Origin: Nanobdellota archaeon | Lineage (GTDB): Archaea > Nanobdellota > Nanobdellia > Woesearchaeales > SM23-78 | Length of the DNA: 64,000 nt | Direction: 5' to 3' | Assembly: GCA_018819305.1 (NCBI GenBank) | Contig: JAHJQO010000010.1 | Span: 8,429-72,428, forward strand | In this document: in pieces, positions 16,068 through 44,512 of the stretch | Numbering within the stretch: position 1 is the first letter of the stretch | How the letters are laid out: each line of letters begins with the position of its first letter | Made by a program: the position numbers and the translations under genes | The notes under the pieces: model-generated | The model's input: the letters and a program-made list of their open reading frames with translations, nothing else | The model's database searches: none | Told to the model about the DNA's origin: nothing

Positions 16068-16078
16068 AAATTTATATA
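16068..16078 (+). promoter_or_regulatory. TATA box for the surface-protein island
   Basis: aaaTTTATATA 47 nt upstream of ATG 16125, which has an SD (aGGGTGGg). Confidence 0.4.
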
Positions 16079-16124: not shown

Positions 16125-19100
16125 ATGAAGAAGATTTCAAGAGTGTTTTTTCTTTTTGTTCTAATTATAATAGCTAGTTTGTTATTTTATATTCCTATTT
16201 CGATGAGTGTACCAAGTGATCAATGCTGTAATGTTGATGAGTGTGATGACTGCGAGCTTTGTAGTGGTAGTCCAGATTGTAGTTCTCAACCTTATGTTTA
16301 TGGTTCTTGCGTGCCTCAGGCAAACAAAGATCCGTGTAATTCCTGTAGTTCTGGTTATTGTGAATGCCGGGCAGGTGTTTGTGAAGATAAAACATGCTAT
16401 AATAATAATGATTGTGGAGATTGTCAAAAGTGTTCCAATAGTGCATGTACTGCTGATAATGCTGCAACATGTTCTTCTTGTTCTAGTGGTATTTGTGTTT
16501 GTTCTGGTGGTTCTTGCAAAAATCAATTTGCTGGGAAAGCTGTTTATAAAATTAAAAATGAACCAGACATACTTGAAAAGGCTAGTGTAAATAGATTTGC
16601 TTGTATAGGTCTTTCAGGAGTGAATATTATTGATGAGAATCCAACTAATTGGATATCAATTGGCAGTTCTGAAACTAAGTGCCTTGATAACAAAGTCATT
16701 TGTGGTTTTAAAGCAGGTGATGATGGTGATCAAGGTGAAATTGATTATATGAAATGTTGTAAACTTGATGCTGGCGGTAAGACTATTTCTCTTGTTGGTA
16801 CGGGTAATCTTGATCCTAACGGACGTAACACAGAAGCAATGTGCTCAGACAATGGAGTGGCTGTTTATGCAAAACAACTGAGCGATGATGGTGTACATGA
16901 AGTTTACTGTGCTAAGGTTTTAGTTGATGGCGTTGTTGCAGGGAGAATAAATACAGATGTTGGTTGGAAAGAAATAGATCGTGATGATGAAGCAATTATG
17001 TGTACAATGGGTTCTGGTTCTGGTAGCGACCCACCACCAGAAATTGATCCTAGAACTTTTAATTGTTCTGCAGCTGCTTGTGTTGCTAATCCTGAAAGAT
17101 GTAAAAAATGCTGTAAATGTGAAGGCGCTACTGGTCCTGGTTATTATAACGTCCCATCCAGCTGCAAACTAGCTAAAAAGAATTGCACTGAAATATATGA
17201 AATTCATGACGCTGCTATTGTTTGTGGATGTGGAAGTGCAAAGCCACCCTGTAACGTGATTGAAAAAGTAGGCGATTGTGGTGATTATCCTGATGAATGC
17301 AAATGGTGTCACACTCCAAGCCCAGAAATTTATCCTTATAATTTTTCAGCGATTTATGATGAAATTTTTGTTGATGCAGCAACTAAAAAAGCTTGTGTAA
17401 ATATAACTGCAGACCCTTTTAATTGTGGTGGCTGTGGTTTTGCTGATGCTGATGGAAAAAGCGAAACTGATTTTTTCTGTGGTTTTGAAAATAGGAATGA
17501 TCGTCCTGGAAGTCCTTTTTGTGTTGAAAGTGAATGTGTTGGTAGATCTGATGCAACTTCTGAGAATGTTGTTTTGCCAAGCAAAGAAAAAAATCCTTAT
17601 TTTTATTATGATGTAAAAACATCTGCAACTGCTTATGGTACTCAGTATTCTTCTGAATGGGGGGATGGCAGTTCATTACCTATTTATTTATCACATGATA
17701 TAGATAGTTCTGAAACTATTTGTTTGAGCAGTGAAATTGGTGGAACTGATTTTGTTGATGGACTTGGTTGTTGTGGTAATGGTAAATGTCGGGAAAAAGG
17801 AACTTCTATGTGTAATGTTAATGCTATCTGTGATGGCATATATTGGCATGATGCTACTGCTGATGAGGATAATGATGGAGAATATGATTCTAATGGAGAA
17901 ATTTTTAAAGCTCCTGATTGCGAGCAGGATGATAGTTATAATTATCCTATTGCTAATATAAATGGTATTTTTAAGCGGTGTGTTGATTTTGACAGACCTA
18001 GTGAATATGTTCAATCACGACACACTGGTATTTGTGCTCCTGATCTTGTTATGAATAACTCTGTTTGGTCAAATGCACTTATTGGAAATAATTATGCAAA
18101 GGTTACTGGTGCTAATGAAGGCGCTTCTGAGGCATTTGATTCAGGTTTGACTGGCGGCAGAGAATATGCATGCGGAAAGGATTATTATACTGTAGCAGGT
18201 AACAGAGGTCTTGTAGCTTCTCATGGAAATTTTTGTCCTGGCCATCCTATTGATGCAATAGAAGTAGAAGAAGCAGGTACTCGTGGTTCTTTTTTCATCT
18301 GCGATGCTTCAGGCGATACTTATACATTTGCAGCAATTTTAGATGCAGGAAGGATAATTTCAGGTGGTGAATCATTAGGAAGTGTTTTTATTCCAGAAGA
18401 TGATAATGCTCCTGGTAAGAATAGGTATGATATTTGTCCTGCTCCTGTTTTGGAATGGAAAGAAAAAACATCTGCAACTGCAACAGAGTATACTTCAGAA
18501 CCAAGAAATGAACTTGTTGTTCTTCCTTGTCCTGGAAAGATTTCTCTTTCTAATATGGACTTGGAAAATAGTTTTTTAATTAATAATATTGAAAGATCAT
18601 GGAGTGTTAGTTATGGTGGTGCATATTCTGTTACTGTTAATATTTGTAGGCCGCGTTTAGACGATACTGATAACAGTGGTAAGTATCCTCTTCCAAGAAC
18701 TTATTATTTCCTTAGCAACGGTACTATGATGGGTGATGTTAATAATAATTCTTATCTTTGCTTTACTGATGAAACCATGCTTCCTCAACATGATGAGCCT
18801 TCCAGAGCAAAAATTGGTGTTTGCTGTGGAGATGATGGTTGTGGTGATATAGATATAGGAAGTGGGGGAAATGAATATAACCCTGGTGATTATGTCAATG
18901 TGAGTGGCAAAATAGTTTATTGCATGCATAATGGAAGTTGGAGTGAAGACTTGGATTATAACGATACTGCAATTCAAGGAGCATGTTTAAGAGCAGGGCA
19001 TTTTGCAACAGATAATTTTTGCTGTGCAGAAAGTGATGATACAAGACCGTGGATTAGTGAATCTTATAATGATCCTGGCAGTGAATATGGTGCATGCTTC

Positions 19101-20714
19101 AAAGCAGAACCTCAATATAATGATTATTTTATGAGTTTTAATGGAACCGCATATCCAAATGTTTTTGTTAATAACGGGACTTTTTTTGGTTGTGGATTTA
19201 ATAATTCTTTGTTTGAAAGCGAGTATAATCTTTCAATAGGCATAATTGCTGGTGAAAATGTAAATTATCTTCCTGATTTTATAACTTGCGATCTTTTTAA
19301 ACAAGTGAATTCAAGTAATGTTTGTGTTTTGGATGATAATAATATTTTAAATGACACTTGCTTATATAATGTTGAGGACTGGCCAAACCCAGGTACGGGC
19401 TGCGCAGATACAAAAACAGGAGAACCTTTGATTAAAGAAGTTGAATATTGCACAATTATAAATACATCTTCAAGTGGAGACTTTTATTGCTCTTATAATA
19501 ATACTTGGAATGTTACTGGGGGAGAAAATCTTTCTCATAATTCTGCTGTACCAGATATTTTATTTAATTATATAAATCAATCTTGGGCAGATTCTGGTAA
19601 GGATACTTCGCTTCTCCAGGAAGCAAATTGCTGCAGGCCAAATGAATGTTGGGATGCTGATAAGGGTGTGTGTATTCCAGAGCAAACAGGATTTGATGAA
19701 TATATACTTATTAATGAAACAGTTGCTTACAAGTGTTTATTAGGAGAGTGGATTAATGTCCTTGCTACAGGAAAAAGAACTCCTGATGGCTGCTATGCAG
19801 GTATTTGTCCAGAAGCATCTCAATGTTTGTATGATATTACTGGAAATTCTTATCAGAATAATAATGTTTCTAACAGTGCCAATCCTCAATGTATTGATAA
19901 TAATCAATATATTGGAGATGCATTGTGTGTTAATGGTATGTGGGAAAGCAGGACAAAAAGATTAGCAGAAGAAATGTCTGCACTTGTTGGCAATAATGAT
20001 AACTTTGTTATTATGTGCGGTACTCCTGATGATGTGCTAATTAATCTGGACCATAATATAGGTGCGAGCAATAATTATTGTGTGTTGAATTTAGATGGGC
20101 AGAGGATTATTGGCACGACTTTGAATCAGCCACTTTATGATTCAGAAACTCATAATGATTTTATTACTGCTTTTGAACAGACTTTTTTAGTGTCTTATCC
20201 AGAAATGGGTGTTTCTTTTAATTCAAATTGCGGAGAAGACACTGATGATTTTGACAGATGTATAAATAATGATTATGTACAGCTTTATTATGATGATAAT
20301 TATCAAATGGTTGTGTTTAGTAACGAACCTGTTGACAATTTAATTCCTGGCTTATTTAGTGGTATTTGTGATAATCCTCCTTGGTGGATTGGCTGGCTTT
20401 GTCCTGCTCCAAGCGGGTTGGAAACAAACTTGGCGTCACTCCAGATGTTTAACAAAGTTTATGCTGCTAGATTAGGCAATAAAGAAGTGTTTGGTGTTGC
20501 TGAGAAAGAATGTAACCCTATGACTTTGAGAAAGACATGGCTTTTTTCATTTAATTATACTGGGTTTGGTTCAGCAGATTTAGGTCATTTAGTAGCTCAT
20601 GTTCAAGCAGATGATGCAAACATAACAGAATCTCAAAATAACATCTTCATTAGAAATCCTGATGCTGACGCATGGACTGCTCTTACTCTTCTTAGAAACA
20701 CAGAACAAGAATAA
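16125..20714 (+). CDS. Giant secreted cysteine-rich protein (1529 aa)
   Basis: N-terminal signal/anchor MKKISRVFFLFVLIIIASLLFYIPISMS, then dense Cys patterns (CCNVDECDDCELCSGSPDC...) and many N-x-S/T sequons. I recognise no enzymatic motif. Confidence 0.7.
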   Translation: MKKISRVFFLFVLIIIASLLFYIPISMSVPSDQCCNVDECDDCELCSGSPDCSSQPYVYGSCVPQANKDPCNSCSSGYCECRAGVCEDKTCYNNNDCGDCQKCSNSACTADNAATCSSCSSGICVCSGGSCKNQFAGKAVYKIKNEPDILEKASVNRFACIGLSGVNIIDENPTNWISIGSSETKCLDNKVICGFKAGDDGDQGEIDYMKCCKLDAGGKTISLVGTGNLDPNGRNTEAMCSDNGVAVYAKQLSDDGVHEVYCAKVLVDGVVAGRINTDVGWKEIDRDDEAIMCTMGSGSGSDPPPEIDPRTFNCSAAACVANPERCKKCCKCEGATGPGYYNVPSSCKLAKKNCTEIYEIHDAAIVCGCGSAKPPCNVIEKVGDCGDYPDECKWCHTPSPEIYPYNFSAIYDEIFVDAATKKACVNITADPFNCGGCGFADADGKSETDFFCGFENRNDRPGSPFCVESECVGRSDATSENVVLPSKEKNPYFYYDVKTSATAYGTQYSSEWGDGSSLPIYLSHDIDSSETICLSSEIGGTDFVDGLGCCGNGKCREKGTSMCNVNAICDGIYWHDATADEDNDGEYDSNGEIFKAPDCEQDDSYNYPIANINGIFKRCVDFDRPSEYVQSRHTGICAPDLVMNNSVWSNALIGNNYAKVTGANEGASEAFDSGLTGGREYACGKDYYTVAGNRGLVASHGNFCPGHPIDAIEVEEAGTRGSFFICDASGDTYTFAAILDAGRIISGGESLGSVFIPEDDNAPGKNRYDICPAPVLEWKEKTSATATEYTSEPRNELVVLPCPGKISLSNMDLENSFLINNIERSWSVSYGGAYSVTVNICRPRLDDTDNSGKYPLPRTYYFLSNGTMMGDVNNNSYLCFTDETMLPQHDEPSRAKIGVCCGDDGCGDIDIGSGGNEYNPGDYVNVSGKIVYCMHNGSWSEDLDYNDTAIQGACLRAGHFATDNFCCAESDDTRPWISESYNDPGSEYGACFKAEPQYNDYFMSFNGTAYPNVFVNNGTFFGCGFNNSLFESEYNLSIGIIAGENVNYLPDFITCDLFKQVNSSNVCVLDDNNILNDTCLYNVEDWPNPGTGCADTKTGEPLIKEVEYCTIINTSSSGDFYCSYNNTWNVTGGENLSHNSAVPDILFNYINQSWADSGKDTSLLQEANCCRPNECWDADKGVCIPEQTGFDEYILINETVAYKCLLGEWINVLATGKRTPDGCYAGICPEASQCLYDITGNSYQNNNVSNSANPQCIDNNQYIGDALCVNGMWESRTKRLAEEMSALVGNNDNFVIMCGTPDDVLINLDHNIGASNNYCVLNLDGQRIIGTTLNQPLYDSETHNDFITAFEQTFLVSYPEMGVSFNSNCGEDTDDFDRCINNDYVQLYYDDNYQMVVFSNEPVDNLIPGLFSGICDNPPWWIGWLCPAPSGLETNLASLQMFNKVYAARLGNKEVFGVAEKECNPMTLRKTWLFSFNYTGFGSADLGHLVAHVQADDANITESQNNIFIRNPDADAWTALTLLRNTEQE

Positions 20715-20741
20715 GAAATAAAATTTAGGCATCATGTTAAA

Positions 20742-21602
20742 ATGAGAAAAGCAGTTTATGCAGGTTTATTCTATCCTACGACAGTTGACACTTTGCAAAA
20801 AGTGTTAGATGAGTGTTTTAATAGTGAATTAGGTCCTGGAGCGCTTCCAACTAGACCAAAACCAAATGCTTTGCCTGTTAAAGCTGTGATTTGTCCTCAT
20901 GCAGGTTATGTATACAGTGGCATGGCAGCAGCATGGAGTTATAAAGCAGTTGCAGAAGCTCCTCTTCCAGATCTTTTTATTTTAATAGGCCCAAACCACA
21001 GAACAAATGAATCAGGCATTTCAGTAAAAACTTTTGAAACACCACTTGGTTTTGTCAGGGTTGATCAGGACTTTGCAAAAGTTCTTGCAGGCAAAGGAAA
21101 TATTAAGATTAATGAAAAGATTCATGAACCAGAACACAGTCTGGAAGTTCAACTTCCTTTTTTGCAGTTTGTCCTTGGTGACAGAGCTGAAAAAATAAAA
21201 ATTTTACCTTTGCTTGTGTCTGATGATTTAGATATTGACAAAGCAGTAAACGATTTAAAAGAAACAATAAAAGAATTGAAGAGAAAAGTTACTTTTATTG
21301 TGAGCTCTGATTTTACTCATTATGGTCCAAGTTATGGATACACTCCTTTTACTGACAATATCAAGGAGAATCTTGCAAAACTTGATAATGGCGCAATTGA
21401 ATTTATTAAAGAAGGCGATGTTAATGGGTTTGAACTTTATATTCAAGAAACAGGGGCAAGTATTTGCGGTTTTTTACCAATATTATTGCTTTTGAAAATA
21501 ATTAATTCCAAAAAAGTTTTTGTTGAATCATACTACACATCTGCTGATGTTACAGGAGATTACAGCAATAGTGTGAGTTATGTTAGTATGGTTTTCAGAT
21601 AA
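20742..21602 (+). CDS. MEMO1-family protein (AmmeMemoRadiSam system protein B type)
   Basis: AGLFYP, CPHAGYVYSG, IGPNH, EHSLEVQLPFL and DFTHYGP motifs. Confidence 0.75.
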   Translation: MRKAVYAGLFYPTTVDTLQKVLDECFNSELGPGALPTRPKPNALPVKAVICPHAGYVYSGMAAAWSYKAVAEAPLPDLFILIGPNHRTNESGISVKTFETPLGFVRVDQDFAKVLAGKGNIKINEKIHEPEHSLEVQLPFLQFVLGDRAEKIKILPLLVSDDLDIDKAVNDLKETIKELKRKVTFIVSSDFTHYGPSYGYTPFTDNIKENLAKLDNGAIEFIKEGDVNGFELYIQETGASICGFLPILLLLKIINSKKVFVESYYTSADVTGDYSNSVSYVSMVFR

Positions 21603-21606
21603 ATAA

Positions 21607-23418: not shown

Positions 23419-23493
23419 ACTTCCTCAAAATTACTAAATAAATGATATTAACAATATTAATTGTTAAATTTACGTAAATCGATTCAAAAGAAC

Positions 23494-23505
23494 AAACTTT
23501 ATATA
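23494..23505 (+). promoter_or_regulatory. BRE/TATA promoter internal to the island
   Basis: aaaCTTTATATA about 40 nt before the start. An SD (aaaGGTGGt) precedes ATG 23546. Confidence 0.45.
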
Positions 23506-23545
23506 CTTAAAAACAGGTTTTAAAAGTGAAAAAGGTGGTTGAGTG

Positions 23546-26539
23546 ATGAATAATCAAAAATTTATCTTATTTGTAGTAATTTTTTCTCTTTTTATTCTTA
23601 TTTTGCCTGGTTTTGTTTATGCAGCAGGTTGTTGTATAGATGCATCTTTAGGTGCTTGTACAAATGTTGCCCTAGCATCAGAATGCCAAACAGAAGGCAG
23701 AACTTATGTTGATGGAGTTGCTTGCGAAACAGCATGCGCGCAAGTTTGTTGCTGTGATTTTTCAAATGCATGTGATGTGAATATTGATTATTCCTGTATT
23801 GCACCTGATACTTCCTGTGCTTATACTGGAAGCGGAGATGTAGGGGATTCATGTTCTTGCACCACGTCAAATAATTATAATGTTTCTGGAACTATAAGAA
23901 ACTCAGCAGGCGGAGTTGTAAGCGGTGCAACTGTCAGTGCTGCAGGTGCCACACCAGTTACTTCTGCTAGTGGCGGTACCTACACTCTTATTGATGCAAC
24001 TGCAAGTTCTGCTGTTATTGTTACAGCTCACAAAATATCTGTTGGATGTGTTCCTGCCACCAGAACTATTGATTTAAGTTCTTCTAACCAAGCTAATGTT
24101 GATATAACCCTGAGCTGCACTTGTGTACCTGAAACATGCAATGCTACGCTCAATGCTTATTGTAAATCAGATTCTACATGGCAGGTATACAATATTTTAA
24201 ATCCTCTTGAAAAGATAAATTATTGTAATTTCTGTAGTGTTGATGACTCTGCTGATTGCGGCAGTGTTAATGTTTGTGTTGGGGGTAATGCAGAATGTCC
24301 TTTGATTTGTTCAGCCATATCCACAGATTCTAATTATGATTCTGATTGTGTGTGCAATAGTACAGTATCAAATAATTTCTGCCCTCCAGGATGTGCATCA
24401 GATGAGTTTAGCTCTAATTTTGATATTGATTGCAATATTTATTCGCCTATTTGCGGAGATAGAATTGTCACTTACCCTTATGAAACTTGTGAAGATAATC
24501 CTTTTGACGGCCAGCTAAATCTTTGCTCTGCACACGACTGTGCAAATCCTAGTGAATTAGGAGCATGCAATTGTTTATCTCTTTCAGGATGCGGCAATGG
24601 AATTTTTGAACCAGCTTTAGGAGAACAATGTGAAATAGGAATGATTTGCACTGATGGGGTTTTGTGTGAAAACTGTGAATGCGGAACACCAACATGCACA
24701 GGAAATCTAATTAACCCTGAACTCCAGATAAGTTTTAATTCCCAGCAAAACAAAAATGATGTTTCATGGACACTTTTAACTTCTTGCATACCTAGTGTTT
24801 CTAATTATGCTGTTTACAAATGTGAAAAACAAGTGAGCAGTGATTGTAGTGATAAAGGTGTATTTTCACTTTTGGCTGGTAATATCCACGCCAGGAGTTT
24901 AACTGATTCTGCAATTACAGAATCTTCTGAATATTGTTATTTTGTTAAAGCATTTTATAGAGATGGAGCTATTGGTGAATCCAGAATTCAATGTGAGAAA
25001 ACAGGTTCTTATTATTGTATGGAATCACATCCACCAGAATTCTGCATAAACAATGCCAGAAGTGAATGTGATAATAGCAATAACATACGAGTTGTTGAAG
25101 ATTGCAAACCAGATAAATTTTGTATGGGGCCTGATTTAGATGGCGCTACACACTGTCTTGACCAGGGGCTTTGTGACATGTGCAACGGCATGTATGGCGT
25201 GTTTTCTAATTTAGATTTGAAAATCCAAGTCCAGGAAGGAGAATATTATGTTTTCAAGTATTGCAAGCCAGGTACTGGAAGAGAAGCAGTCGAAGGATGT
25301 TATATTGATAGAACAAAAACTCTTTTCAGTGCTTTTGATTATTGCGCTGAAATTGCAAGCTGCTATGATTTTAAATCAGAAGATGCTTGCGAAGACCCAA
25401 CTGATCCTTGTGATAAAAACCAGATTTGCGACTGGGAGTGGCTTGATTCAAATAGCCATGAATTAGGTGGTGTTTGCAGACCTAATGCCATTGAACTGCA
25501 AAAATGTGAACTCTGTGATGATGAAGATTACAACTGGTTGACACCAGGATGCACACCAGCAACCTGCAGCTTGTTTGGGGAGTGTTATTATCAAGGAAGA
25601 TCAAGCACAAGAATCAATGCAGAACCTTGCACAAAACAAATCACAGCCAATTGCCTTGATTATACTGACACTGCTACTTGTACAAACGGAGTGCCAGTAC
25701 ATATTAATGCAATATATAATGCAAATAATGAACGTGTTTCAGGAAGCCATGCTCTTGCTCCTGCAAGTGATGATATTCTTGGTCTTGGAAAATGTTATTG
25801 GGATTCTGTTAATAGCAGATGCCTGAGAAATGCAGATAATAATCCTGTAAGAGATTGTAGAATTGGTGATTATTATTGTGAATCAGATTTTAGAGATCCA
25901 AAAACATCTATTTTGCCTTCAAACTTTGGAGTGTATCCTGCAGATGTAAATATAAGATTTAGTGTTGCAGATAATTATCCATCAAATAAGATAATATCGC
26001 ACTTCTGTGTTTCTGATGGTGTTTGTTATCCAAGAGATTTGGCAGATAATGCCAATGGTATCTATAGCACAACCATAGACACATCTGGAGTATACAATGT
26101 TTATTATTATTCATCTGACCCTGCAAAAAATCTTGAAATTGTAAAAAACACTCAAATACTTGTTGATACGATTCCACCATCTATTAATTTAACAAGTCCT
26201 TCAGACCCAAGCAATTTCCCAACCAATCAGAATATTGTACCTGCTGTTGGTGTAACTTCAACAGATTCCAAGTTTATATGTGCTCAGAACACAAGATCAC
26301 TTCAAACTTTATGTGTGAATAATTGTTTGCTTACTGGAAATGATCCTGCTTTGCCTTGCTTTTCAAACCAGACAGGTATTTTTGAAATAGATATACATAT
26401 TGGAAATGATAATTTAACACAAGTTGTATTTTTTGCAGAAGACTTTGCAGGCAATACTTATAGAAACACTTTGCTTGGTGTTTTATTAGATATTGATCCT
26501 CCTGATGAGGCAGATATCAATGTTTACCCGGTAATTTGA
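23546..26539 (+). CDS. Secreted cysteine-rich protein with carboxypeptidase-regulatory-like beta-sandwich segment (about 997 aa)
   Basis: Sec-type signal FILFVVIFSLFILILPGFVYA|AGCC. Also YNVSGTIRNSAGGVVSGATVSAAG (CarboxypepD_reg-like) and CGNGIFEPALGEQCE-type repeats. The ORF opens at GTG 23543. Confidence 0.65.
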   Translation: MNNQKFILFVVIFSLFILILPGFVYAAGCCIDASLGACTNVALASECQTEGRTYVDGVACETACAQVCCCDFSNACDVNIDYSCIAPDTSCAYTGSGDVGDSCSCTTSNNYNVSGTIRNSAGGVVSGATVSAAGATPVTSASGGTYTLIDATASSAVIVTAHKISVGCVPATRTIDLSSSNQANVDITLSCTCVPETCNATLNAYCKSDSTWQVYNILNPLEKINYCNFCSVDDSADCGSVNVCVGGNAECPLICSAISTDSNYDSDCVCNSTVSNNFCPPGCASDEFSSNFDIDCNIYSPICGDRIVTYPYETCEDNPFDGQLNLCSAHDCANPSELGACNCLSLSGCGNGIFEPALGEQCEIGMICTDGVLCENCECGTPTCTGNLINPELQISFNSQQNKNDVSWTLLTSCIPSVSNYAVYKCEKQVSSDCSDKGVFSLLAGNIHARSLTDSAITESSEYCYFVKAFYRDGAIGESRIQCEKTGSYYCMESHPPEFCINNARSECDNSNNIRVVEDCKPDKFCMGPDLDGATHCLDQGLCDMCNGMYGVFSNLDLKIQVQEGEYYVFKYCKPGTGREAVEGCYIDRTKTLFSAFDYCAEIASCYDFKSEDACEDPTDPCDKNQICDWEWLDSNSHELGGVCRPNAIELQKCELCDDEDYNWLTPGCTPATCSLFGECYYQGRSSTRINAEPCTKQITANCLDYTDTATCTNGVPVHINAIYNANNERVSGSHALAPASDDILGLGKCYWDSVNSRCLRNADNNPVRDCRIGDYYCESDFRDPKTSILPSNFGVYPADVNIRFSVADNYPSNKIISHFCVSDGVCYPRDLADNANGIYSTTIDTSGVYNVYYYSSDPAKNLEIVKNTQILVDTIPPSINLTSPSDPSNFPTNQNIVPAVGVTSTDSKFICAQNTRSLQTLCVNNCLLTGNDPALPCFSNQTGIFEIDIHIGNDNLTQVVFFAEDFAGNTYRNTLLGVLLDIDPPDEADINVYPVI

Positions 26540-26582
26540 TTAAAAAAATTTAGCAAGAAAATTTAAAAAAGAGGGTTTATGA

Positions 26583-28865
26583 ATGAAAGCACTATTTAGA
26601 AAGATTTCAAGTGTTCGATTTGTAGTTTTAGTTTTTTTATTAATTAGTTTATTGTCTATAACTTTTTTTGTATCTGCCGTACCTTCTTTTAGGATAATAA
26701 ATAGTACTGATATTGGAATCAATGTTACTTATACAGAACGTATTTCTCCTCTTATTTTTAGATTAACAAATGCAAGTGATTTTGGTTTTGCGATTGATCA
26801 AACCCTTGGCTCTTCTCCAGGAACTTTTTTTGTTTATGAACCCAGAGGAAGTTTAAGACCAGGTCCTTATAATTTTTTTATCAAAGTTGTTGACAATGCA
26901 AATAATTTTAGAAATGATACACAAAATTTTTCCATTGTATTGCCTATTCCGCCAGGATGCGGCAACGGAGTTGTTGCAGGTAATGAAGAATGTGATGATG
27001 GAAATAATATTGATGGTGACGGATGTAGCACATATTGTAAATCAGAGGATTGTGGTAATAATAGAGTTGAGGTAGGTGAAGTATGTGATGGCACTGACTT
27101 AAATGGTAAGAACTGCGATACTATTGGTGATTTTACAGGAGGCACACTAGGATGCAAGGATAACTGTGGTTTTAACACTAGCAAATGTAATGACCCTGTT
27201 AATTATTGTGGTGATGGAGTGATTAGATCAGGAGAGCAATGTGAAGGGGGTTTGCATGGCAAAAAGTGTATTGATTTTCCTCCTTTTACAGGAGGTACTT
27301 TAAGCTGTCAGAATTGCACTTACAATACAAGCAGATGCACCGGTCCAACAGGAGGATATTGTGGGGATGGGAAAGTTGTTGTTGGTGAGCAGTGTGAAGG
27401 TGGTATTGGAAGTATAACCTGCAGAGACTTTGATGAGTTTACAAGAGGCACATTAGAGTGTGTGAGTTCTACTTGTCTTTTTGACACATCTGATTGTAAA
27501 CAGTCAGAACCTAGATGTGGGGATTTAATTTTAAACGGAGCTGAAGTATGTGATGGAAATGAATGGGGTAATATAACAGGGTGTATTGATTTTGCTGCTT
27601 TTACAGGAGGATTTCTTGATTGTCATGATACTGGTGCAAACAGATGTCATTTTGATACTAGTTATTGCACAACAGGGGGAACTGCAAATGAATCGTGTTT
27701 TAATTCAGAAAAAGATGGGGATGAAACTGATATAAATTGCGGAGGTTCCTGCCCTTGCTGTGCAGCACCAAAAAAATGCTTGGTAAATCAGGATTGTTGT
27801 TTAAATAACTGCAAGAATAATATTTGTGTCGCACCTAACTGTGATGATAAAGAAAAAAATGGTTTAGAATCAGATAAGGATTGCGGTGGTGATTGTCCTG
27901 CATGTAATATCAGCCAGAGCTGTAATCAAGACAGGGATTGTGTAACTGATTTTTGCCATCCTATAGCGAAAAAATGTGCAATTCCTACTTGCGCTGACGG
28001 TTATCTAAATGGTGATGAATCAGGTGTTGATTGTGGTGGCAGCTGCCCTGATAAATGTGGGCAGGATCAAAATTGTATATCTGATAATGATTGCAGAGAA
28101 GGCCTTATCTGCGAATACGGTAAATGTAATGCAGATAGAACTCAGGATACTGATGGTGATGGAATGCCAGACTGGTGGGAAAACACAAATGGATTAAATC
28201 CTAATGATGCAAATGATGCAGATTTGGATAAGGATGGTGATGGTTATACTAATTTAGAGGAATATCTAAATGGTACAGATCCTAATGATCCAAATGATCC
28301 TGCTCCTGAGAAAAAACATACACTTCAAATCATTCTGTTGATTTTGGGCTTGTTACTCATGCTTGGCAGTATAGGTTTCTTGATTTACTATAGGAAAGTT
28401 ATTTTGCCACAGCAGCAAGCAGCAGCAAGAGCTCGAACACCAACTCAACAACAAGGAGCTCAGAGACCTGAAACATCTGGTGGCGCTCAAGTACAGGCCC
28501 GAGGTAATGTGAGAAGACCATTACCAGGAAGACCTGGTGTTGGAGGTGTAAGGAGATCTTTGTTAAAAGGATTTGATAAAACAAAGCTTGGCGCTCAAAA
28601 ATCAACCTCTGTCGCAGGAAAAAAGACTGATTCTAGTTCTCCAAAACAAACTTCAGAGTATGTGCCTTTATCGCAGTTAGGAAAGAAAAAAGTTCAAGAG
28701 TCAGATGTTAAAAAAACTGTAAAAAAGCCTTCGAGTGACACATTTGATAAATTAAAAGACTTGTCAAGCAAAGATAAATCTGCTGGAAAGAGCACAAAGG
28801 ATGCTTTGAAAGAGCTATCTGATTCATATAAGAAAAAAACAGATAAAAAGAAACAGGATAAGTGA
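26583..28865 (+). CDS. Type I membrane protein with modular Cys-rich repeats, TSP3-like Ca-binding repeats, a TM helix and a basic disordered tail
   Basis: Signal peptide and one CGNGVVAGNEECDDGNNIDGDGCSTYC module. Then four CGDGxVxxGExC...FTGGTLxC...TSxC modules of about 50 aa, three C-x-D-x-x-NGDE(S/T)-x-(V/I/K)-(D/N)-CGGxCP modules, DTDGDGMPDWWE...DKDGDGYTNLEEY, the TM helix IILLILGLLLMLGSIGFLIYY, and a 155-aa K/Q/R-rich tail. Confidence 0.7.
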   Translation: MKALFRKISSVRFVVLVFLLISLLSITFFVSAVPSFRIINSTDIGINVTYTERISPLIFRLTNASDFGFAIDQTLGSSPGTFFVYEPRGSLRPGPYNFFIKVVDNANNFRNDTQNFSIVLPIPPGCGNGVVAGNEECDDGNNIDGDGCSTYCKSEDCGNNRVEVGEVCDGTDLNGKNCDTIGDFTGGTLGCKDNCGFNTSKCNDPVNYCGDGVIRSGEQCEGGLHGKKCIDFPPFTGGTLSCQNCTYNTSRCTGPTGGYCGDGKVVVGEQCEGGIGSITCRDFDEFTRGTLECVSSTCLFDTSDCKQSEPRCGDLILNGAEVCDGNEWGNITGCIDFAAFTGGFLDCHDTGANRCHFDTSYCTTGGTANESCFNSEKDGDETDINCGGSCPCCAAPKKCLVNQDCCLNNCKNNICVAPNCDDKEKNGLESDKDCGGDCPACNISQSCNQDRDCVTDFCHPIAKKCAIPTCADGYLNGDESGVDCGGSCPDKCGQDQNCISDNDCREGLICEYGKCNADRTQDTDGDGMPDWWENTNGLNPNDANDADLDKDGDGYTNLEEYLNGTDPNDPNDPAPEKKHTLQIILLILGLLLMLGSIGFLIYYRKVILPQQQAAARARTPTQQQGAQRPETSGGAQVQARGNVRRPLPGRPGVGGVRRSLLKGFDKTKLGAQKSTSVAGKKTDSSSPKQTSEYVPLSQLGKKKVQESDVKKTVKKPSSDTFDKLKDLSSKDKSAGKSTKDALKELSDSYKKKTDKKKQDK

Positions 28866-28887
28866 GGAGGCTAAGTGAGGTGAGTTT

Positions 28888-29403
28888 TTGAAATCTAATG
28901 CAAAAGCACAAATTAGCCAGGTTTTCACTTATATTATTATTATTTTAGTGGTTGGCCTGATTGTAGTATTTGGTGTGAGAGGCATCATAAAGATTATGAA
29001 TGCGAATTGTGAGCATCAAGATGTATTATTTAATAAAACATTAATGAGTTTTATTGACGAGTATTCTGATAGAGGTATGGTTCAGGAGGAATCTATTAAA
29101 GCACCCTGTGATGCAGAAGAGATTTGTTTTGCTGATTCTGAGTATTGTCCAAGAGCAAGTTCAACATTAACTTTAGATGCTATCCCTGCGAGTGAGAACC
29201 TTATAAGAGATGCTGTAGGTTCTTGCACTGCAAATGTTTTTGTTAAAGGTAAATTCACAATACCGATTGGTTTTTCAAAAAAAATAAGCGTTAACAAAGG
29301 GATTCCTGCCGATTCTTTTCAGTGTATTAGTGTCAAAGGCGGCAGTGTCAAACTTGTTTTCAGTGGCCTTGGAAGACAGACACAGATTGAATCAGGCTGG
29401 TAG
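28888..29403 (+). CDS. Type IV pilin-like protein (class III signal peptide), 171 aa
   Basis: TTG start 4 nt after GAGGTGAG. N-terminus MKSNAKA|QISQVFTYIIIILVVGLIVVFGV. Confidence 0.5.
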   Translation: MKSNAKAQISQVFTYIIIILVVGLIVVFGVRGIIKIMNANCEHQDVLFNKTLMSFIDEYSDRGMVQEESIKAPCDAEEICFADSEYCPRASSTLTLDAIPASENLIRDAVGSCTANVFVKGKFTIPIGFSKKISVNKGIPADSFQCISVKGGSVKLVFSGLGRQTQIESGW

Positions 29404-29443
29404 AATAATTTAACAAACTAATTTTCAAAGATGTTAAGGTGTT

Positions 29444-30508
29444 ATGATGTTAAAGATATCCTTATTAAATAAAAGAGGTTTTGCTATTCAGTTTAATTGG
29501 CTCTTTGTTCTTATTGGCGGTGTTGTTATTCTGAGTTTTTTTGTTAGTCTTATAAATAACAGTACTTTTGGAAATGACCAGGAAACAGACCAGAAATCAA
29601 CAGAAGAAGTAAATGCTTTGTTAAAAGTCAGCTTAGCATCTGGCAACACCCAGAAAACAATGTCTTTTGACAAGAAAATAATGTTTTATTGTGATGATAC
29701 TTCAGAATTTTTTGTTGGTGCTGCCTTTAAGCCAGCCAGATATGATTATAATGCAATTTTTTCTCCTAAAGTACTTGACAGCTCAGAATTAATCATACAA
29801 ACTCTAGCTTTGAATATTCCTTTCAGAGCCATGCCTTTGGTTTATGTCACTAATAAAGATATTGAATATGTTTTTGTAGGCAATGCTCCTCTGATTAATT
29901 TGGTTTTTAACCAGATGCCAGATAATGTGACAATGAAATCAATTCCTGCAGGAAGCATTGCATATTATCCTAACTTTGATTTTGACCACACAGTCTTTAT
30001 TCTTAGTGATACTTCTCACTTGGCTGCTCTCAGTAATTTTGCAGGTACAAAAGATGTTGTATATGCTGTTGTTCTTGAGCCTGGCAGTGCAAATGTGTAC
30101 TCTTATGGTAATATTTCTTTTTATCGTTATGATACGCCTTCTTCAAGTTTTGTTCTTGACGGCACTCTTCCCTTTTTAGGTTCAGAATTGCTGTTGGGAG
30201 GAGTTATAAGTCATGACAAGACAATTTATGAATGTAATCTGAAAAAAGTAATTACTCGTATTTCAACTCTAAGTAAACTTCATGAAGAAAGAATGGTTTA
30301 CTATGGTGATAATGCTGAATCTCACTGCCAGATGTATTATGCTGGCAGTGCCACTAGCGCAATAAATTATTTAGAAGACCTTAAAATTTTTGCTGAAAAA
30401 AATGAACTTTCAGTGGTAAACTTTCAAAGTATTTATTCAGCTATCAGCAGCTTAAGATCATTGAATAATTTTATTATTACAAAAACAGAATGCCCGAGAA
30501 TTTATTGA
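29444..30508 (+). CDS. Type IV pilin-like protein (class III signal peptide), 354 aa
   Basis: N-terminus LLNKRG|FAIQFNWLFVLIGGVVILSFFVSL. Confidence 0.45.
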   Translation: MMLKISLLNKRGFAIQFNWLFVLIGGVVILSFFVSLINNSTFGNDQETDQKSTEEVNALLKVSLASGNTQKTMSFDKKIMFYCDDTSEFFVGAAFKPARYDYNAIFSPKVLDSSELIIQTLALNIPFRAMPLVYVTNKDIEYVFVGNAPLINLVFNQMPDNVTMKSIPAGSIAYYPNFDFDHTVFILSDTSHLAALSNFAGTKDVVYAVVLEPGSANVYSYGNISFYRYDTPSSSFVLDGTLPFLGSELLLGGVISHDKTIYECNLKKVITRISTLSKLHEERMVYYGDNAESHCQMYYAGSATSAINYLEDLKIFAEKNELSVVNFQSIYSAISSLRSLNNFIITKTECPRIY

Positions 30509-30548
30509 ATTGGTCAATTAATTGAATTTATTAATATAAACATCAAAA

Positions 30549-31052
30549 ATGAAAAGAAAAGCCCAAATGCAAATGACAGAAAGCATTTTTGTAGTTTTCA
30601 TGGTTCTAATTATTATTGTGATTGGTTTTGTTGTCTATTCTAAATTTCAGGAGACAAGCATAAAAGAAAAACAGAAACTTTTGAGATCAATGCAGTTGAT
30701 TGAAATGGGGCATCGGCTTAGCTCATGGCCAGAGCTGGAATGCTCTGTGGCAGGTGTTACTGAATTTGTATGCCTTGACACTGTGAAACTTATGGTTTTG
30801 GGTGACATTATTAACAAAACCAAAGGAACAAAATTATATGAATATTATTTCGACCTTTTGAAAAACTCAAAAATTACTGTGACTGAAATTTATCCTTCAA
30901 ACACTTTGACAAAAGGAAAAGATTATTGGGTGTTATATGAGAATCCAGGGATGACAAAAACTATAGACCCTATTACTGTTCCTGTAAATCTTTACAATCC
31001 ATTGACAAAGCAATATGCTTTTGGAGTTTTGGAGTTGTTGATATATGAATAA
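30549..31052 (+). CDS. Type IV pilin-like protein (class III signal peptide), 167 aa
   Basis: N-terminus MKRKA|QMQMTESIFVVFMVLIIIVIGFVVY. Confidence 0.5.
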   Translation: MKRKAQMQMTESIFVVFMVLIIIVIGFVVYSKFQETSIKEKQKLLRSMQLIEMGHRLSSWPELECSVAGVTEFVCLDTVKLMVLGDIINKTKGTKLYEYYFDLLKNSKITVTEIYPSNTLTKGKDYWVLYENPGMTKTIDPITVPVNLYNPLTKQYAFGVLELLIYE

Positions 31053-31548
31053 TAGAACAATAAAAAGAAAAATCAATAGAAAAGCGCAGTTAGAAATGAT
31101 TGGATTAATTGTAATTGTTATCATTGTGGTGGTAGCTCTGCTGATATTTACTGTTTACCAGGTAACGAATCCTCAGCGAAACATTAAGAGAAAATACATG
31201 AATGAAGAAATAGCCACGAATATGCTTGTTAGCATGATGAATATAGACCTGCGTGAGTGTCATAATCTTTCTTTGCAAGAACTTGTTGGTGACTGTGCCA
31301 AAACTTTTCATTCAATAACTTGTCTTGATAGTACGAGCTGTGAAATTGCAAATAAAACAATTTATGATATTTTGAACAGAACTCTGATTGATTGGGATGT
31401 CAGCTTTAATTTATCTGTGCAGAATACAGACATATCTTTTGTAAATCTTGGTTGTACTGCCAGAGTAAAGAGTAAAATCAGAGGATTTCAAATATTACCT
31501 CTTTATCCTGGGCAGATAGAAATGATATTGGATGTCTGCACTATATAA
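31045..31548 (+). CDS. Type IV pilin-like protein (class III signal peptide), 167 aa
   Basis: N-terminus KINRKA|QLEMIGLIVIVIIVVVALLIF. Overlaps the previous gene by 8 nt. Confidence 0.5.
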   Translation: MNNRTIKRKINRKAQLEMIGLIVIVIIVVVALLIFTVYQVTNPQRNIKRKYMNEEIATNMLVSMMNIDLRECHNLSLQELVGDCAKTFHSITCLDSTSCEIANKTIYDILNRTLIDWDVSFNLSVQNTDISFVNLGCTARVKSKIRGFQILPLYPGQIEMILDVCTI

Positions 31549-33924: not shown

Positions 33925-33970
33925 GCAAGATATAGACAGATATTGAATAAAATATTGAACAGGATTAAAA

Positions 33971-35974: not shown

Positions 35975-36076
35975 TCCTGCCTGAGCTGGATTTTGCTTTG
36001 TTCTTTAGGTAAACTTTTTAAATAAAAGCTTTTAATACCATATAATTAACACGATTTATAAAACTTTAACAAGGAG

Positions 36077-39350: not shown

Positions 39351-39394
39351 TTTTTTTCCTTTTTTTTTAGTTCTTTTGAGGCTGCTGTACAGAT

Positions 39395-42154: not shown

Positions 42155-42162
42155 AGGAGAAA

Positions 42163-42963: not shown

Positions 42964-42965
42964 AA

Positions 42966-44503: not shown

Positions 44504-44512
44504 GGAAATAAA

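What the first reader, a model, noticed from the sequence alone, without database searches (positions are those of the whole stretch)
16125..31548. 15-kb single-strand island of giant cysteine-rich secreted proteins interleaved with pilin-like proteins
Nine co-directional genes with short gaps. Four are very large extracytoplasmic proteins (1529, 603, about 997 and 760 aa) with signal peptides, very high Cys content in regular spacings, many N-glycosylation sequons and shared CGNG/CGDG-x-x-x-x-GE-x-C modules. Five genes carry class III (type IV pilin-like) N-termini; one of these, the 603-aa protein, belongs to both sets. The window contains no PilB/FlaI ATPase, PilC/FlaJ platform or prepilin peptidase gene. 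Inference: this is a dedicated cell-surface attachment apparatus, a short pilus or fibre tipped with or decorated by disulfide-stabilised adhesins. That is the kind of structure an episymbiotic small-genome archaeon would need for host contact. I recognise none of the large proteins as a known family, so the island as a whole may be uncharacterised.
Basis: partly seen in the sequence, partly recalled or inferred. Interest (0 to 1): 0.8.

Follow-up and report, generated by a model that had tools for sequence, protein, structure and literature searches.

The report
Woesearchaeal pilin-like and giant adhesin locus
This is one clade's version of an undescribed gene cluster shared by most Woesearchaeota-type small archaea, combining four to five pilin-like proteins with huge cysteine-rich surface proteins; it probably builds a cell-surface attachment structure, but no pilus motor has been found beside it in any genome examined.

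Summary
There are nine co-directional genes. Four are large Cys-rich exported proteins (3.7-8.2% Cys against 1.65% elsewhere in the window). Five carry class III (prepilin-like) N-termini. The window has no pilus ATPase, platform or peptidase.

Three corrections:
- One of the nine genes is an ordinary Memo gene, present only in the close clade.
- The CGNG...GE.C module occurs only in the 760-aa and 998-aa proteins.
- Glycosylation sequons are enriched only in some of the proteins.

The region is not a horizontally acquired island. It is a core, syntenic locus. The quartet g6-g7-g8-g9, preceded by giant surface proteins, recurs in at least 80 species-level genomes, mostly labelled Woesearchaeota or Nanoarchaeota. 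Six protein families share a [KR][KR][A/S/G]-Q processing-type motif.

The 760-aa protein is a C-terminally anchored, S-layer-like membrane protein. The 603-aa protein contains cadherin-like domains. None of the nine except Memo belongs to a curated family as a whole protein.

Best reading (about 0.5): this is the minor-pilin plus adhesin plus S-layer-like module of an archaeal type IV pilus-like system whose motor is encoded elsewhere. No ATPase lies within 10 kb in any of the 80 loci, so a non-filament envelope complex remains a serious rival.

It is a new variant of a known kind.

The parts
16071..16078 (+). TATA-like box TTTATATA, 47 nt upstream of the g1 start. Likely promoter of g1-Memo-g3.
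   Evidence: The octamer occurs 14 times in the window against 7.1 expected, mostly 25-70 nt upstream of start codons.
16125..20714 (+). g1: 1529-aa secreted Cys-rich giant protein. It has an N-terminal hydrophobic signal and no other TM helix. Residues about 917-1470 form the part conserved across Woesearchaeota.
   Evidence: Only 3 non-self homologues turned up in the word-indexed 5.8-billion-protein search. No Pfam, NCBIfam or PDB hit.
20742..21602 (+). g2: Memo-family protein. It is a cytoplasmic housekeeping passenger, not part of the surface system.
   Evidence: PF01875, E 7e-62. No hydrophobic segment. It occupies this position only in the close clade, in 5 of 80 loci.
21607..23418 (+). 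g3: 603-aa class III-signal protein (KKA|QITLFVIFG). It has a novel alpha/beta domain (about 50-310), two cadherin-like beta-sandwich domains (about 316-485) and a Cys-rich C-terminal knob.
   Evidence: Q+1 and T+3 in 100% of members. Exhaustive HMMER search: 1597 representatives at E<=1e-3. AF2 model pLDDT 88. Foldseek: SraP and cadherins, E 5e-6 to 1e-3.
23498..23505 (+). TATA-like box TTTATATA, about 40 nt upstream of g4. Likely promoter of g4-g9.
23543..26539 (+). g4: 998-aa secreted protein with 8.2% Cys. It has a Sec-type signal (…VYA|AGCC), a weak CarboxypepD_reg domain at 114-191 and no membrane anchor.
   Evidence: Residues 350-900 are conserved in the giant proteins of distant loci.
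26583..28865 (+). g5: 760-aa type I membrane protein. In order it has a Sec signal, five CG[ND]G..GE.C (DUF4215/myxo_disulf) repeats, three x-CGG-x-C modules, TSP3 Ca-binding repeats, a TM helix at 583-601 and a 160-aa Lys/Ser-rich cytoplasmic tail. The overall layout is S-layer-like.
   Evidence: PF13948, 30.1 bits (cut-off 27). TIGR02232, 38.4 bits (cut-off 20.8). TSP3_bac. The same C-terminal TM plus basic tail occurs in at least 46 of 66 related giant proteins.
28888..29403 (+). g6: 171-aa class III-signal protein (AKA|QISQVFTYI), first member of the conserved quartet.
   Evidence: Q+1 100%, Q/H+5, F+7. A gene at this position is found in 61 of 80 loci. hhalign links its N-terminal 40-58 residues to g8, g9 and the small pilins.
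29444..30508 (+). g7: 354-aa class III-signal protein (KRG|FAIQFNWLFVLIGG), the most conserved member of the quartet.
   Evidence: 39 homologues. 111 species-level relatives in GTDB genomes. QFNW is invariant. AF2 model pLDDT 90, with a 48-residue N-terminal helix followed by beta-sheet and a helical domain. No PDB structural neighbour at E<0.001.
30549..31052 (+). g8: 167-aa class III-signal protein (RKA|QMQMTESIFVVF).
   Evidence: Q+1 98%, E+6 100%. Found next to g7 in 72 of 80 loci.
31045..31548 (+). g9: 167-aa class III-signal protein (RKA|QLEMIGLIVIV) with conserved cysteines.
   Evidence: Q+1, E+3 and G+6 each 100%. Found in 60-64 of 80 loci.
32938..37867 (+). Possibly associated, weak link: an ABC-2 exporter (328-aa ATPase and 667-aa permease) and a 596-aa N-anchored double thioredoxin-fold protein (GILT/DsbA-like, C-P-Y-G motifs). 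The latter is a candidate oxidative-folding helper for the Cys-rich proteins.
   Evidence: Adjacency is kept only in the close clade, in 7-9 of 80 loci.

Best explanation
The region is one clade's version of a core, vertically inherited cell-surface locus found in Woesearchaeota and Nanoarchaeota-type DPANN archaea. It encodes the non-motor part of a type IV pilus-like (TFF-superfamily) surface structure.

**Proposed roles.**
- g6, g7, g8 and g9 are four different pilin-like proteins, one copy each, always in the same order.
- g3 is a large pilin-like protein that carries cadherin-like adhesion domains.
- All five are proposed to be cut after the conserved [KR][KR][A/S/G] site by a prepilin-type peptidase encoded elsewhere.
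- They would then assemble through their hydrophobic N-terminal helices into a short heteromeric stem or tip (priming) complex. This would resemble bacterial minor pilins (FimU-PilVWX, GspHIJK).
- g1 and g4 are Sec-exported and have no anchor. They would dock on this complex as fast-evolving, disulfide-stabilised adhesins, as PilY1 does.
- g5 is anchored by a C-terminal helix with a long basic cytoplasmic tail. It would form an S-layer-like canopy or base.
- The motor ATPase, the platform protein, the peptidase and, in this clade, the candidate major pilin lie outside the locus.

**Shown.** Gene content, N-terminal motifs and their conservation, domain and fold predictions, synteny and phyletic spread.

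**Inferred.** Signal cleavage, filament or complex assembly, docking of g1 and g4, adhesion, and any role in host contact.
For: 1. Six protein families of the wider locus share the same site: basic residues at -3/-2, A/S/G at -1 and Q at +1 in 90-100% of members, followed by about 20 hydrophobic residues. The families are g3, g6, g8, g9, the small ~90-aa proteins and, in a shifted register, g7. Each family has its own invariant polar residues in the helix: E+3/G+6 in g9, E+6 in g8, Q+5 in g6, S+4/N+6 in the small proteins, T+3 in g3.
2. Profile-profile comparison links g6, g8, g9 and the small proteins only through their first 40-58 residues (hhalign probability 71-94%, E 1e-7 to 4e-5). A conserved N-terminus with unrelated globular parts is the pattern seen in type IV pilins.
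3. The g7 model is confident (pLDDT 90) and has a 48-residue N-terminal helix followed by beta-sheet.
4. The quartet co-occurs in a fixed order in 60-78 of 80 species-level loci. It is almost always preceded by giant proteins.
5. In most distant lineages the cluster continues with 2-3 tandem ~90-aa Cys-rich class III proteins, which are candidate major pilins, plus 6-10 further class III proteins.
6. g3 contains cadherin-like domains. The giant proteins carry Ig-like, CarboxypepD_reg, PEGA, TSP3 and DUF4215 modules.
7. The architecture matches published models of archaeal T4P loci: a major pilin, at least 5 minor pilins, a large adhesin and an S-layer-like protein with a C-terminal TM helix and conserved cysteines. 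The same paper notes that nanoarchaeal T4P ATPases had no identified cognate pilins (PMC4858521). Makarova et al. 2019 also predicted that unannotated signal-peptide proteins in DPANN T4P loci are diverged pilins (PMC6393860).
8. Island proteins diverge faster than housekeeping neighbours: 31-66% identity against 57-91%. This is as expected for exposed surface proteins.
Against: - No T2SS-E/FlaI-type ATPase, TadC/FlaJ platform or prepilin peptidase was found in the window, in about 82 kb of the 91.7-kb source contig, or within 10 kb of the g7 gene in any of 80 related genomes (417,000 aa scanned).
- One study states that T4P components are missing from DPANN genomes.
- No pilin-like protein here reaches any curated pilin or class III family in Pfam or NCBIfam. 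Family profiles for g9 and the small proteins (the two tested) match no solved pilin.
- The confident g7 model has no PDB structural neighbour, pilins included.
- Ser at -1, present in 31-77% of members in some families, lies outside the G/A rule of the FlaFind predictor. That rule is recalled from my own knowledge and was not tested here.
- The candidate major pilins are absent from this locus in the window's clade.
- Because the close relatives also share flanking housekeeping synteny, gene order within that clade could be inherited rather than selected.
Confidence: 0.5

Rival explanations
1. Non-filament envelope complex. The 'class III' N-termini are uncleaved, or Sec-signal-peptidase-independent, membrane anchors. 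g6-g9 and g3 would form a stoichiometric membrane-anchored scaffold that holds the giant proteins g1, g4 and g5 in an S-layer-like coat. No pilus motor would be involved.
For: - No ATPase, platform or peptidase is linked in 80 loci or on the source contig.
- Each quartet member is single-copy and they are found together, as expected for a fixed complex rather than a polymer.
- The g7 fold does not match any solved pilin.
- g5-type giant proteins with a C-terminal TM helix and cytoplasmic tail are the most constant large partner.
- The locus is core and present once per genome, like envelope genes.
Against: - A [KR][KR][A/S/G]-Q site that is nearly invariant across six otherwise unrelated families is hard to explain for plain anchors. 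It looks like a shared processing site.
- Invariant acidic or polar residues lie inside the hydrophobic helix (E+3, E+6), as in assembling pilins.
- Tandem multi-copy ~90-aa class III proteins in most lineages look like polymer subunits.
- Archaeal pilin genes are commonly unlinked from their ATPase (PMC4858521).
Confidence: 0.25
2. Pseudopilus-type secretion or display device. g6-g9 would form a short type II-secretion-like pseudopilus that pushes the giant Cys-rich proteins, encoded immediately upstream, through or onto the envelope. The pilin-like proteins would not themselves act in adhesion.
For: - A fixed set of four different pilin-like proteins, one of them larger (g7, 354 aa), parallels GspH/I/J/K. 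That comparison is from my own knowledge of T2SS.
- The quartet is constantly adjacent to very large exported proteins.
- No major pilin lies in this clade's locus.
Against: - No secretion ATPase or platform is nearby.
- g1, g4 and g5 have ordinary Sec-type signals, so they need no special export across the single membrane.
- There is no homology to Gsp pseudopilins.
- Archaea have no described T2SS, as far as I know.
Confidence: 0.1
3. Bindosome-like uptake system. Class III-signal proteins would act as substrate-binding proteins that feed the neighbouring ABC transporter, as in the Sulfolobus bindosome.
For: An ABC transporter lies 1.4 kb downstream and keeps this position in the close clade.
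Against: - The transporter is of the ABC-2 (exporter-type) family and has no binding-protein-dependent permease.
- The adjacency holds in only 9 of 80 loci.
- None of the class III proteins hits a solute-binding-protein family.
- A YjbQ or PHP gene on the opposite strand separates the two gene sets.
Confidence: 0.03

Closest known systems
Archaeal type IV pilus loci as modelled by Makarova, Koonin and Albers 2016 (PMC4858521), for example the Methanococcus Epd pili and the Thermoproteales clade 4 systems
   Same: - Several different class III-signal 'minor pilin' genes in a row.
- One or two very large signal-peptide proteins proposed as adhesins.
- An S-layer-like protein with a single C-terminal TM helix and conserved cysteines.
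- Cysteine richness of nearly all components.
- Pilin sets that can be unlinked from their ATPase.
   Different: - No ATPase, TadC or peptidase is linked in any of the 80 loci.
- No sequence membership in any curated pilin family.
- No DUF2341/PilY-type domain was detected in the Pfam scans of the large proteins.
- The proteins reach 1500-3100 aa with 6-10% Cys.
- The lineage is Woesearchaeota, which that census did not cover.
Bacterial minor-pilin priming or tip complexes with PilY1 (FimU-PilV-PilW-PilX-PilY1) and T2SS GspH-I-J-K (my own knowledge)
   Same: - A fixed set of four different low-copy pilin-like proteins encoded together, one of them larger.
- Encoded next to a large non-pilin Sec-exported protein that would sit at the tip and mediate adhesion.
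   Different: - No detectable sequence or structural homology.
- The cleavage motif is [A/S/G]|Q rather than G|F/M with E5.
- The setting is an archaeal envelope with a single membrane.
Sulfolobus bindosome (class III-signal sugar-binding proteins assembled by the Bas system; my own knowledge)
   Same: Large, non-pilin-sized extracellular proteins carry class III signals, as g3 does. They need not form long filaments.
   Different: There are no solute-binding domains. The neighbouring ABC transporter is an ABC-2 exporter type and is linked only in the close clade.
Giant surface proteins of other DPANN archaea (for example the SPEARE proteins of Nanohaloarchaeota, PMC6642349; content recalled from my own knowledge) and type IV pili of episymbiotic Saccharibacteria (PMC12206443, abstract seen)
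   Same: These are ultra-small putative symbionts that invest in very large, fast-evolving surface proteins or in T4P for host contact.
   Different: - The domain content differs: no protease or nuclease domains were detected here.
- The Saccharibacteria systems are bacterial and have complete, linked machinery.
DUF4215 / 'myxo_disulf_rpt' cysteine-rich repeat proteins (PF13948, TIGR02232)
   Same: g5 residues 126-156 score above both curated cut-offs. Four further degenerate copies follow.
   Different: The repeat covers only part of g5 and one copy in g4. It does not explain g1, g3 or the pilin-like proteins.

Membership tests
Type IV pilin-like / class III signal-peptide proteins (TFF superfamily) | An N-terminal class III signal: a short basic leader, a small residue at -1, then about 20 hydrophobic residues | tested here: met
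   All five proteins (g3, g6, g7, g8, g9) have it. Across 26-75 orthologues per family, K/R predominates at -3/-2 (most strongly at -2), -1 is A/S/G and Q+1 is present in 98-100%. g7 uses [G/A]|F-E-I-QFNW. Ser at -1 is frequent and atypical.
Type IV pilin-like / class III signal-peptide proteins (TFF superfamily) | Match to a curated pilin or class III family (for example Pfam Class_IIIsignal PF04021, archaeal Pilin_N, DUF7288-type, or the NCBIfam equivalents) | tested here: not met
   No hit reaches a curated cut-off. The best is DUF7288 for g9, at E 0.0024 and 18.7 bits against a cut-off of 27.
Type IV pilin-like / class III signal-peptide proteins (TFF superfamily) | Pilin fold: a long N-terminal alpha-1 helix packed on a beta-sheet, with similarity to solved pilins | tested here: inconclusive
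   The g7 AF2 model (pLDDT 90) has a helix at 13-60 followed by a beta-sheet. Foldseek finds no PDB hit at E<0.001. Family profiles of g9 and the small pilins find no solved pilin.
Type IV pilin-like / class III signal-peptide proteins (TFF superfamily) | Genomic association with a FlaI/PilB-type ATPase, a FlaJ/TadC/PilC platform and a prepilin peptidase | tested here: not met
   All are absent from the window, from the source-contig flanks and, by Walker-motif scan, from 80 related loci. The rest of the genome could not be searched.
Type IV pilin-like / class III signal-peptide proteins (TFF superfamily) | Cleavage by a prepilin peptidase and assembly into a filament | not testable with these tools
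   This needs N-terminal proteomics and cryo-EM or cryo-ET.
PilY1-type pilus-tip adhesins | A PilY1 beta-propeller or DUF2341 domain in the large protein | tested here: not met
   g1 has no Pfam hit, g4 only a weak CarboxypepD_reg match and g3 only a sub-threshold DUF3149 match; none is a PilY1 or DUF2341 domain.
S-layer-like C-terminally anchored proteins of archaeal T4P loci (Makarova 2016) | A Sec signal, a large Cys-containing ectodomain and a single C-terminal TM helix | tested here: met
   g5 has an N-terminal signal, 54 Cys, a TM helix at 583-601 and a basic tail. The same layout occurs in at least 46 of 66 related giant proteins. Sequence homology to arCOG05471 was not tested.
DUF4215 / myxo_disulf_rpt cysteine-rich repeat | Score above the curated cut-off of PF13948 / TIGR02232 | tested here: met
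   g5 scores 30.1 bits (cut-off 27) and 38.4 bits (cut-off 20.8). g1, g3 and g4 have no hit.
Cadherin-like / Ig-like adhesin domains | A beta-sandwich fold superposable on cadherin or SraP modules | tested here: met
   The g3 model (pLDDT 88) gives 40 PDB hits at E<=1e-3, nearly all tandem cadherin, SraP or Ig domains. The best is 4m03, at E 5e-6 and probability 1.00. Ca-binding residues were not checked.
Memo (PF01875) | Full-length match above the cut-off | tested here: met
   g2 scores 209.5 bits against a cut-off of 27, covering profile positions 2-269 of 269.

The most novel reading that the evidence does not exclude
A previously undescribed, order-wide Woesearchaeota or Nanoarchaeota surface machine. 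An invariant quartet of pilin-like proteins (g6-g9) would form the priming or tip complex of a type IV-like fibre. That fibre would display giant, rapidly diversifying disulfide-rich adhesins. In most lineages it would also carry pilin-fused cell-wall hydrolases (a VanY/M15 domain on a class III protein), used for contact with or penetration of host cells. If this is right, the assembly motor is either unlinked or of an unrecognised type. It would also overturn the statement that DPANN lack type IV pilus systems.
Probability: 0.3. Interest if true: 0.8.

Novelty: new variant of a known kind. Interest (0 to 1): 0.6.

Why it matters
**Why it matters.** Woesearchaeota are among the most widespread uncultivated archaea and are presumed to depend on partner cells, yet no attachment structure has been assigned to them. 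This locus is present once per genome in at least 111 species-level genomes. It takes up 15-25 kb of very small genomes. Every source-named homologue of the surface proteins is called 'hypothetical protein', except one g4 relative named only for its CarboxypepD_reg domain. It is therefore a strong candidate for the cell-cell contact apparatus.

**What it gives experimenters.**
- A sequence motif ([KR][KR][A/S/G]-Q followed by a hydrophobic helix) for finding the full substrate set of the lineage's prepilin-type peptidase.
- Two confident structural models: g7, with no match in the PDB, and g3, with cadherin-like domains.
- Concrete targets for metaproteomics, cryo-ET labelling and host-range comparisons, since the giant proteins vary between species.

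Tried and rejected
- **PDB sequence searches.** phmmer searches with g1, g3, g4 and g5 found nothing significant. Profile searches with the g9 and small-pilin families also found nothing significant.
- **Curated family scans.** Pfam and NCBIfam scans of all island proteins gave only Memo, DUF4215/TSP3 in g5 and a weak CarboxypepD_reg in g4. Per-member Pfam scans of the g9 and small-pilin families gave nothing above cut-off. The NCBIfam 'Amuc_1099 pilus-like system protein' hit in g5 (35 bits against a cut-off of 50) covers only the TSP3 repeat region, so I did not treat it as membership.
- **Structure search.** Foldseek with the g7 model gave no hit below E 0.009.
- **Paralogy among the large proteins.** Only weak Cys-repeat similarity was found between g4 and g5 (E about 1e-5), plus a short match between the g1 N-terminus and the g5 modules. 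They are not paralogues over their full length.
- **Pilus machinery.** Searches of the window, 8.7 kb upstream, 10 kb downstream and 80 related loci found none. I could not query the rest of the MAG.
- **Bindosome or ABC-uptake idea.** Rejected. The transporter is ABC-2 type and is linked only in the close clade.
- **Horizontally acquired island idea.** Rejected. GC content is uniform at about 0.34-0.37. The region sits between replication genes and metabolic genes, in a position conserved across relatives.
- **Insertions within related loci.** Those in L026 and L030 look, from their N-terminal sequences, like metabolic and mobile-element genes rather than machinery; I did not run a domain scan on them.
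- **Literature.** Searches found no paper describing this Woesearchaeota cluster.

Full report
**1. What is there**

The + strand between 16125 and 31548 carries nine ORFs separated by 27, 4, 124, 43, 22, 40, 40 and -8 nt.

| Gene | Coordinates | Length (aa) |
|---|---|---|
| g1 | 16125-20714 | 1529 |
| g2 | 20742-21602 | 286 |
| g3 | 21607-23418 | 603 |
| g4 | 23543-26539 | 998 (997 from the ATG at 23546) |
| g5 | 26583-28865 | 760 |
| g6 | 28888-29403 | 171 |
| g7 | 29444-30508 | 354 |
| g8 | 30549-31052 | 167 |
| g9 | 31045-31548 | 167 |

- Cysteine is 6.4, 3.65, 8.2 and 7.1% in g1, g3, g4 and g5, against 1.65% in 42 other proteins of the window. All four have even Cys counts.
- Every protein except g2 has an N-terminal hydrophobic segment. 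g5 has a second one at 583-601, followed by a 160-residue Lys/Ser-rich tail.
- g2 is a full-length Memo protein (PF01875, E 7e-62).
- The CG[ND]G...GE.C module is present five times in g5 and once in g4, but not in g1 or g3.
- N-glycosylation sequons exceed shuffle expectation in g1, g5 and g9. They are depleted in g4.
- TTTATATA boxes lie 40-47 nt upstream of g1 and g4. The octamer occurs at twice its expected frequency in the window, mostly just upstream of genes. Two transcription units, g1-g3 and g4-g9, are therefore likely. This is an inference.

**2. Source and setting**

The sequence is from a 'Nanoarchaeota archaeon' MAG (GCA_018820305.1) and is also found on a 91.7-kb ENA contig. Upstream lie Cdc6, PolD, MCM and TBP. 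Downstream lie YjbQ, a PHP protein, an ABC-2 exporter, a GILT/DsbA-like protein, hydrogenase genes, Pta-Ack and PFOR. GC content is uniform. This is core chromosome, not an acquired island.

**3. The class III N-termini are real**

In orthologues from four to five close relatives the motifs are conserved: g3 K[KS][AST]|QIT, g6 [KR][AG]|Q[IM][SN]Q.F, g7 [KR]G|F.[LI]QFNW, g8 KA|[QE].Q..E and g9 [AG]|Q.E[MI]IG.

Across 26-75 members per family taken from 80 species-level genomes:
- K/R predominates at positions -3 and -2 (most strongly at -2).
- Position -1 is A, S or G.
- Position +1 is Q in 90-100%.
- Each family has its own invariant polar residues within the first seven positions: E+3 and G+6 in g9, E+6 in g8, Q/H+5 in g6, T+3 in g3.

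hhalign links g6, g8, g9 and a further family of ~90-aa proteins only through the first 40-58 residues (probability 71-94%). A shared processing-type site on otherwise unrelated proteins is the signature of prepilin-like substrates. Within the 64-kb window the motif is confined to these five neighbouring genes.

**4. Not a private island but a lineage-wide locus**

- g1 has only three non-self relatives in the word-indexed search, all followed by Memo.
- g7 has 39 relatives in that search and 111 species-level relatives in GTDB genomes.
- Of the 80 loci kept, 46 are titled Woesearchaeota, Nanoarchaeota or Nanoarchaeia. Another 27 are third-party assemblies titled 'uncultured Methanosarcinales archaeon', probably placeholder names.
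- The N-terminal ~480 residues of g3 define a family with 1597 representatives at E<=1e-3. The named ones are all 'hypothetical protein' from Woesearchaeota, and a sample of eight had no Pfam domains.

Close relatives (MCM about 80% identical, TBP about 90%) keep all nine genes in order. Their island proteins are only 31-66% identical, so these proteins evolve faster than their housekeeping neighbours.

Across all 80 loci, the counts are as follows.

| Gene or class | Loci (of 80) | Note |
|---|---|---|
| g7 | 78 | |
| g8 | 72 | |
| g9 | 60-64 | |
| g6-position gene | 61 | identified by position |
| g5-like giant | 63 | |
| g3-like | 38 | |
| g1-like | 26 | |
| Memo | 5 | |
| ABC-2 / GILT neighbours | 7-9 | |

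Memo is therefore a passenger, and the ABC/GILT adjacency is clade-specific.

The conserved parts are g1 917-1470, g3 50-400, g4 350-900 and g5 150-550. In distant genomes a single 1700-3100-aa protein appears to combine the g4-like and g5-like parts. In at least 46 of 66 cases it ends with a TM helix and a basic tail of 150-250 aa, as g5 does.

**5. The locus is longer elsewhere**

In most distant Woesearchaeota, g9 is followed by these genes:
- two or three tandem ~90-aa Cys-rich class III proteins (KK[AGS]|Q[GS][IL]S[IL]N[VT]IIIAAIAL...), which are good candidates for a major pilin;
- six to ten more class III proteins, one of which carries a VanY/peptidase M15 domain (E 9e-7);
- a ~600-aa N-anchored protein.

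None of these genes is in the window or within 10 kb downstream of g7 in the close clade.

**6. Domains and folds**

- *g5.* It has a DUF4215/myxo_disulf repeat (above the curated cut-offs) and TSP3 repeats before the TM helix.
- *g4.* It has a weak CarboxypepD_reg domain. Seven of its eight non-identical relatives carry that domain.
- *Distant giant proteins.* They add Big_13, Big_3_3, PEGA and CarboxypepD_reg domains.
- *g3 model.* The model is confident (pLDDT 88, pTM 0.85). Foldseek gives 40 PDB hits at E<=1e-3, nearly all tandem cadherin, SraP or Ig modules (best E 5e-6). These cover only part of the protein. The N-terminal alpha/beta domain has no match.
- *g7 model.* The model is confident (pLDDT 90, pTM 0.84). 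It has a 48-residue N-terminal helix, a beta-sheet region and a helical C-terminal domain. It has no PDB neighbour below E 0.009.
- *g1, g3, g4, g5.* None has a PDB sequence relative.

**7. Machinery**

No FlaI/PilB-type ATPase, FlaJ/TadC platform or prepilin peptidase is encoded in any of these places:
- the window;
- 8.7 kb upstream or 10 kb downstream on the source contig;
- within 10 kb of g7 in any of the 80 loci, where a motif scan of 417,000 residues found only ABC ATPases and small P-loop proteins.

I could not search the rest of the genome.

**8. Interpretation**

The published census of archaeal T4P systems describes loci made of a major pilin, at least five 'minor pilins', a large adhesin and an S-layer-like protein with a C-terminal TM helix and conserved cysteines. 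It notes that pilin sets are often unlinked from the ATPase. It also notes that nanoarchaeal ATPases had no identified cognate pilins (PMC4858521). A later paper predicted that unannotated signal-peptide proteins in DPANN T4P loci are diverged pilins (PMC6393860).

The locus fits that plan. I therefore read it as the non-motor module of a type IV pilus-like surface structure:
- g6-g9, and possibly g3, form a heteromeric stem or tip complex.
- g1 and g4 are docked adhesins.
- g5 is an anchored S-layer-like element.

Confidence is about 0.5. Processing, assembly and adhesion are all inferred. The complete absence of linked machinery in 80 genomes, the lack of any family or fold match to known pilins, and a published statement that DPANN lack T4P components all count against this reading.

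The main rival (0.25) is a non-filament, membrane-anchored envelope complex. A pseudopilus-type display device (0.1) and a bindosome-like uptake system (0.03) are less likely.

**9. Novelty**

The kind of system is known. What is new:
- the specific families, none of which is covered by Pfam or NCBIfam;
- the invariant quartet and the shared [KR][KR][A/S/G]-Q site;
- the scale and Cys content of the partner proteins;
- the order-wide conservation with no linked motor.

Searches of the held literature found no description of this cluster. I rate it a new variant of a known kind, with interest 0.6.

Noticed in passing
window 36077-37867: A 596-aa N-terminally anchored protein with two thioredoxin-fold domains (GILT PF03227, E 5e-19; DsbA-like), each with a single-Cys C-P-Y-G motif. 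It stays downstream of the locus in the close clade. It is a plausible extracytoplasmic disulfide oxidoreductase or isomerase for the Cys-rich proteins.
   Followed up: partly
window 32938-35974: An ABC-2 type exporter (328-aa ATPase and 667-aa permease with a large first extracellular loop). It is adjacent to the locus only in the close clade, in 9 of 80 loci.
   Followed up: partly
L039 12263-20631 (and the equivalent stretches of L027, L052, L088 and others): In distant Woesearchaeota the locus continues with tandem ~90-aa Cys-rich class III proteins (candidate major pilins), many further class III proteins, one carrying a VanY/peptidase M15 cell-wall hydrolase domain (L039 17775-18815, E 9e-7), and a ~600-aa N-anchored protein.
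   Followed up: partly
window 50541-52571 and 58870-59889: The TPP-binding subunit of the 2-oxoacid:ferredoxin oxidoreductase carries an intein with a LAGLIDADG domain (precomputed Pfam). A separate 339-aa ORF has a weak LAGLIDADG_3 match.
   Followed up: no
window 13456-14217 (- strand): The TATA-binding protein has an N-terminal extension of about 60 residues that is extremely Lys-rich. The TBP core is about 90% identical in relatives.
   Followed up: no
window 37959-40732 (- strand): Two radical SAM/BATS genes lie side by side. One is fused to an N-terminal HypC/HupF domain. They sit next to a NiFe-hydrogenase-like operon at 41201-45796.
   Followed up: no
window-wide, e.g. 2807, 16071, 23498, 32904, 56297, 58809, 61526, 63182: TTTATATA occurs 14 times against 7.1 expected. 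Most copies lie 25-70 nt upstream of start codons, so it is probably this organism's TATA box.
   Followed up: partly
loci L019-L095 (record titles): 27 of the 80 genomes that carry the g7 family are titled 'uncultured Methanosarcinales archaeon'. One is titled 'Binatia bacterium' and one 'Aminicenantes bacterium'. Their gene content matches Woesearchaeota loci, so these titles are probably mislabels or contaminated bins.
   Followed up: no
L014 12641-20286 (source contig, just beyond the window's 3' end): A MoxR AAA ATPase - DUF58 - DUF7502 - VWA - BatA/VWA cluster (Bat-like aerotolerance or envelope operon) lies on the same contig.
   Followed up: no
L013 2307-23786: In a distant Woesearchaeota genome, a 1261-aa g3-family protein sits among four other giant proteins (1123, 1422, 2381 and 1422 aa) with MopE-like Cys-rich, CarboxypepD_reg and Big_13 matches. 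This is a second type of context for the g3 family.
   Followed up: no
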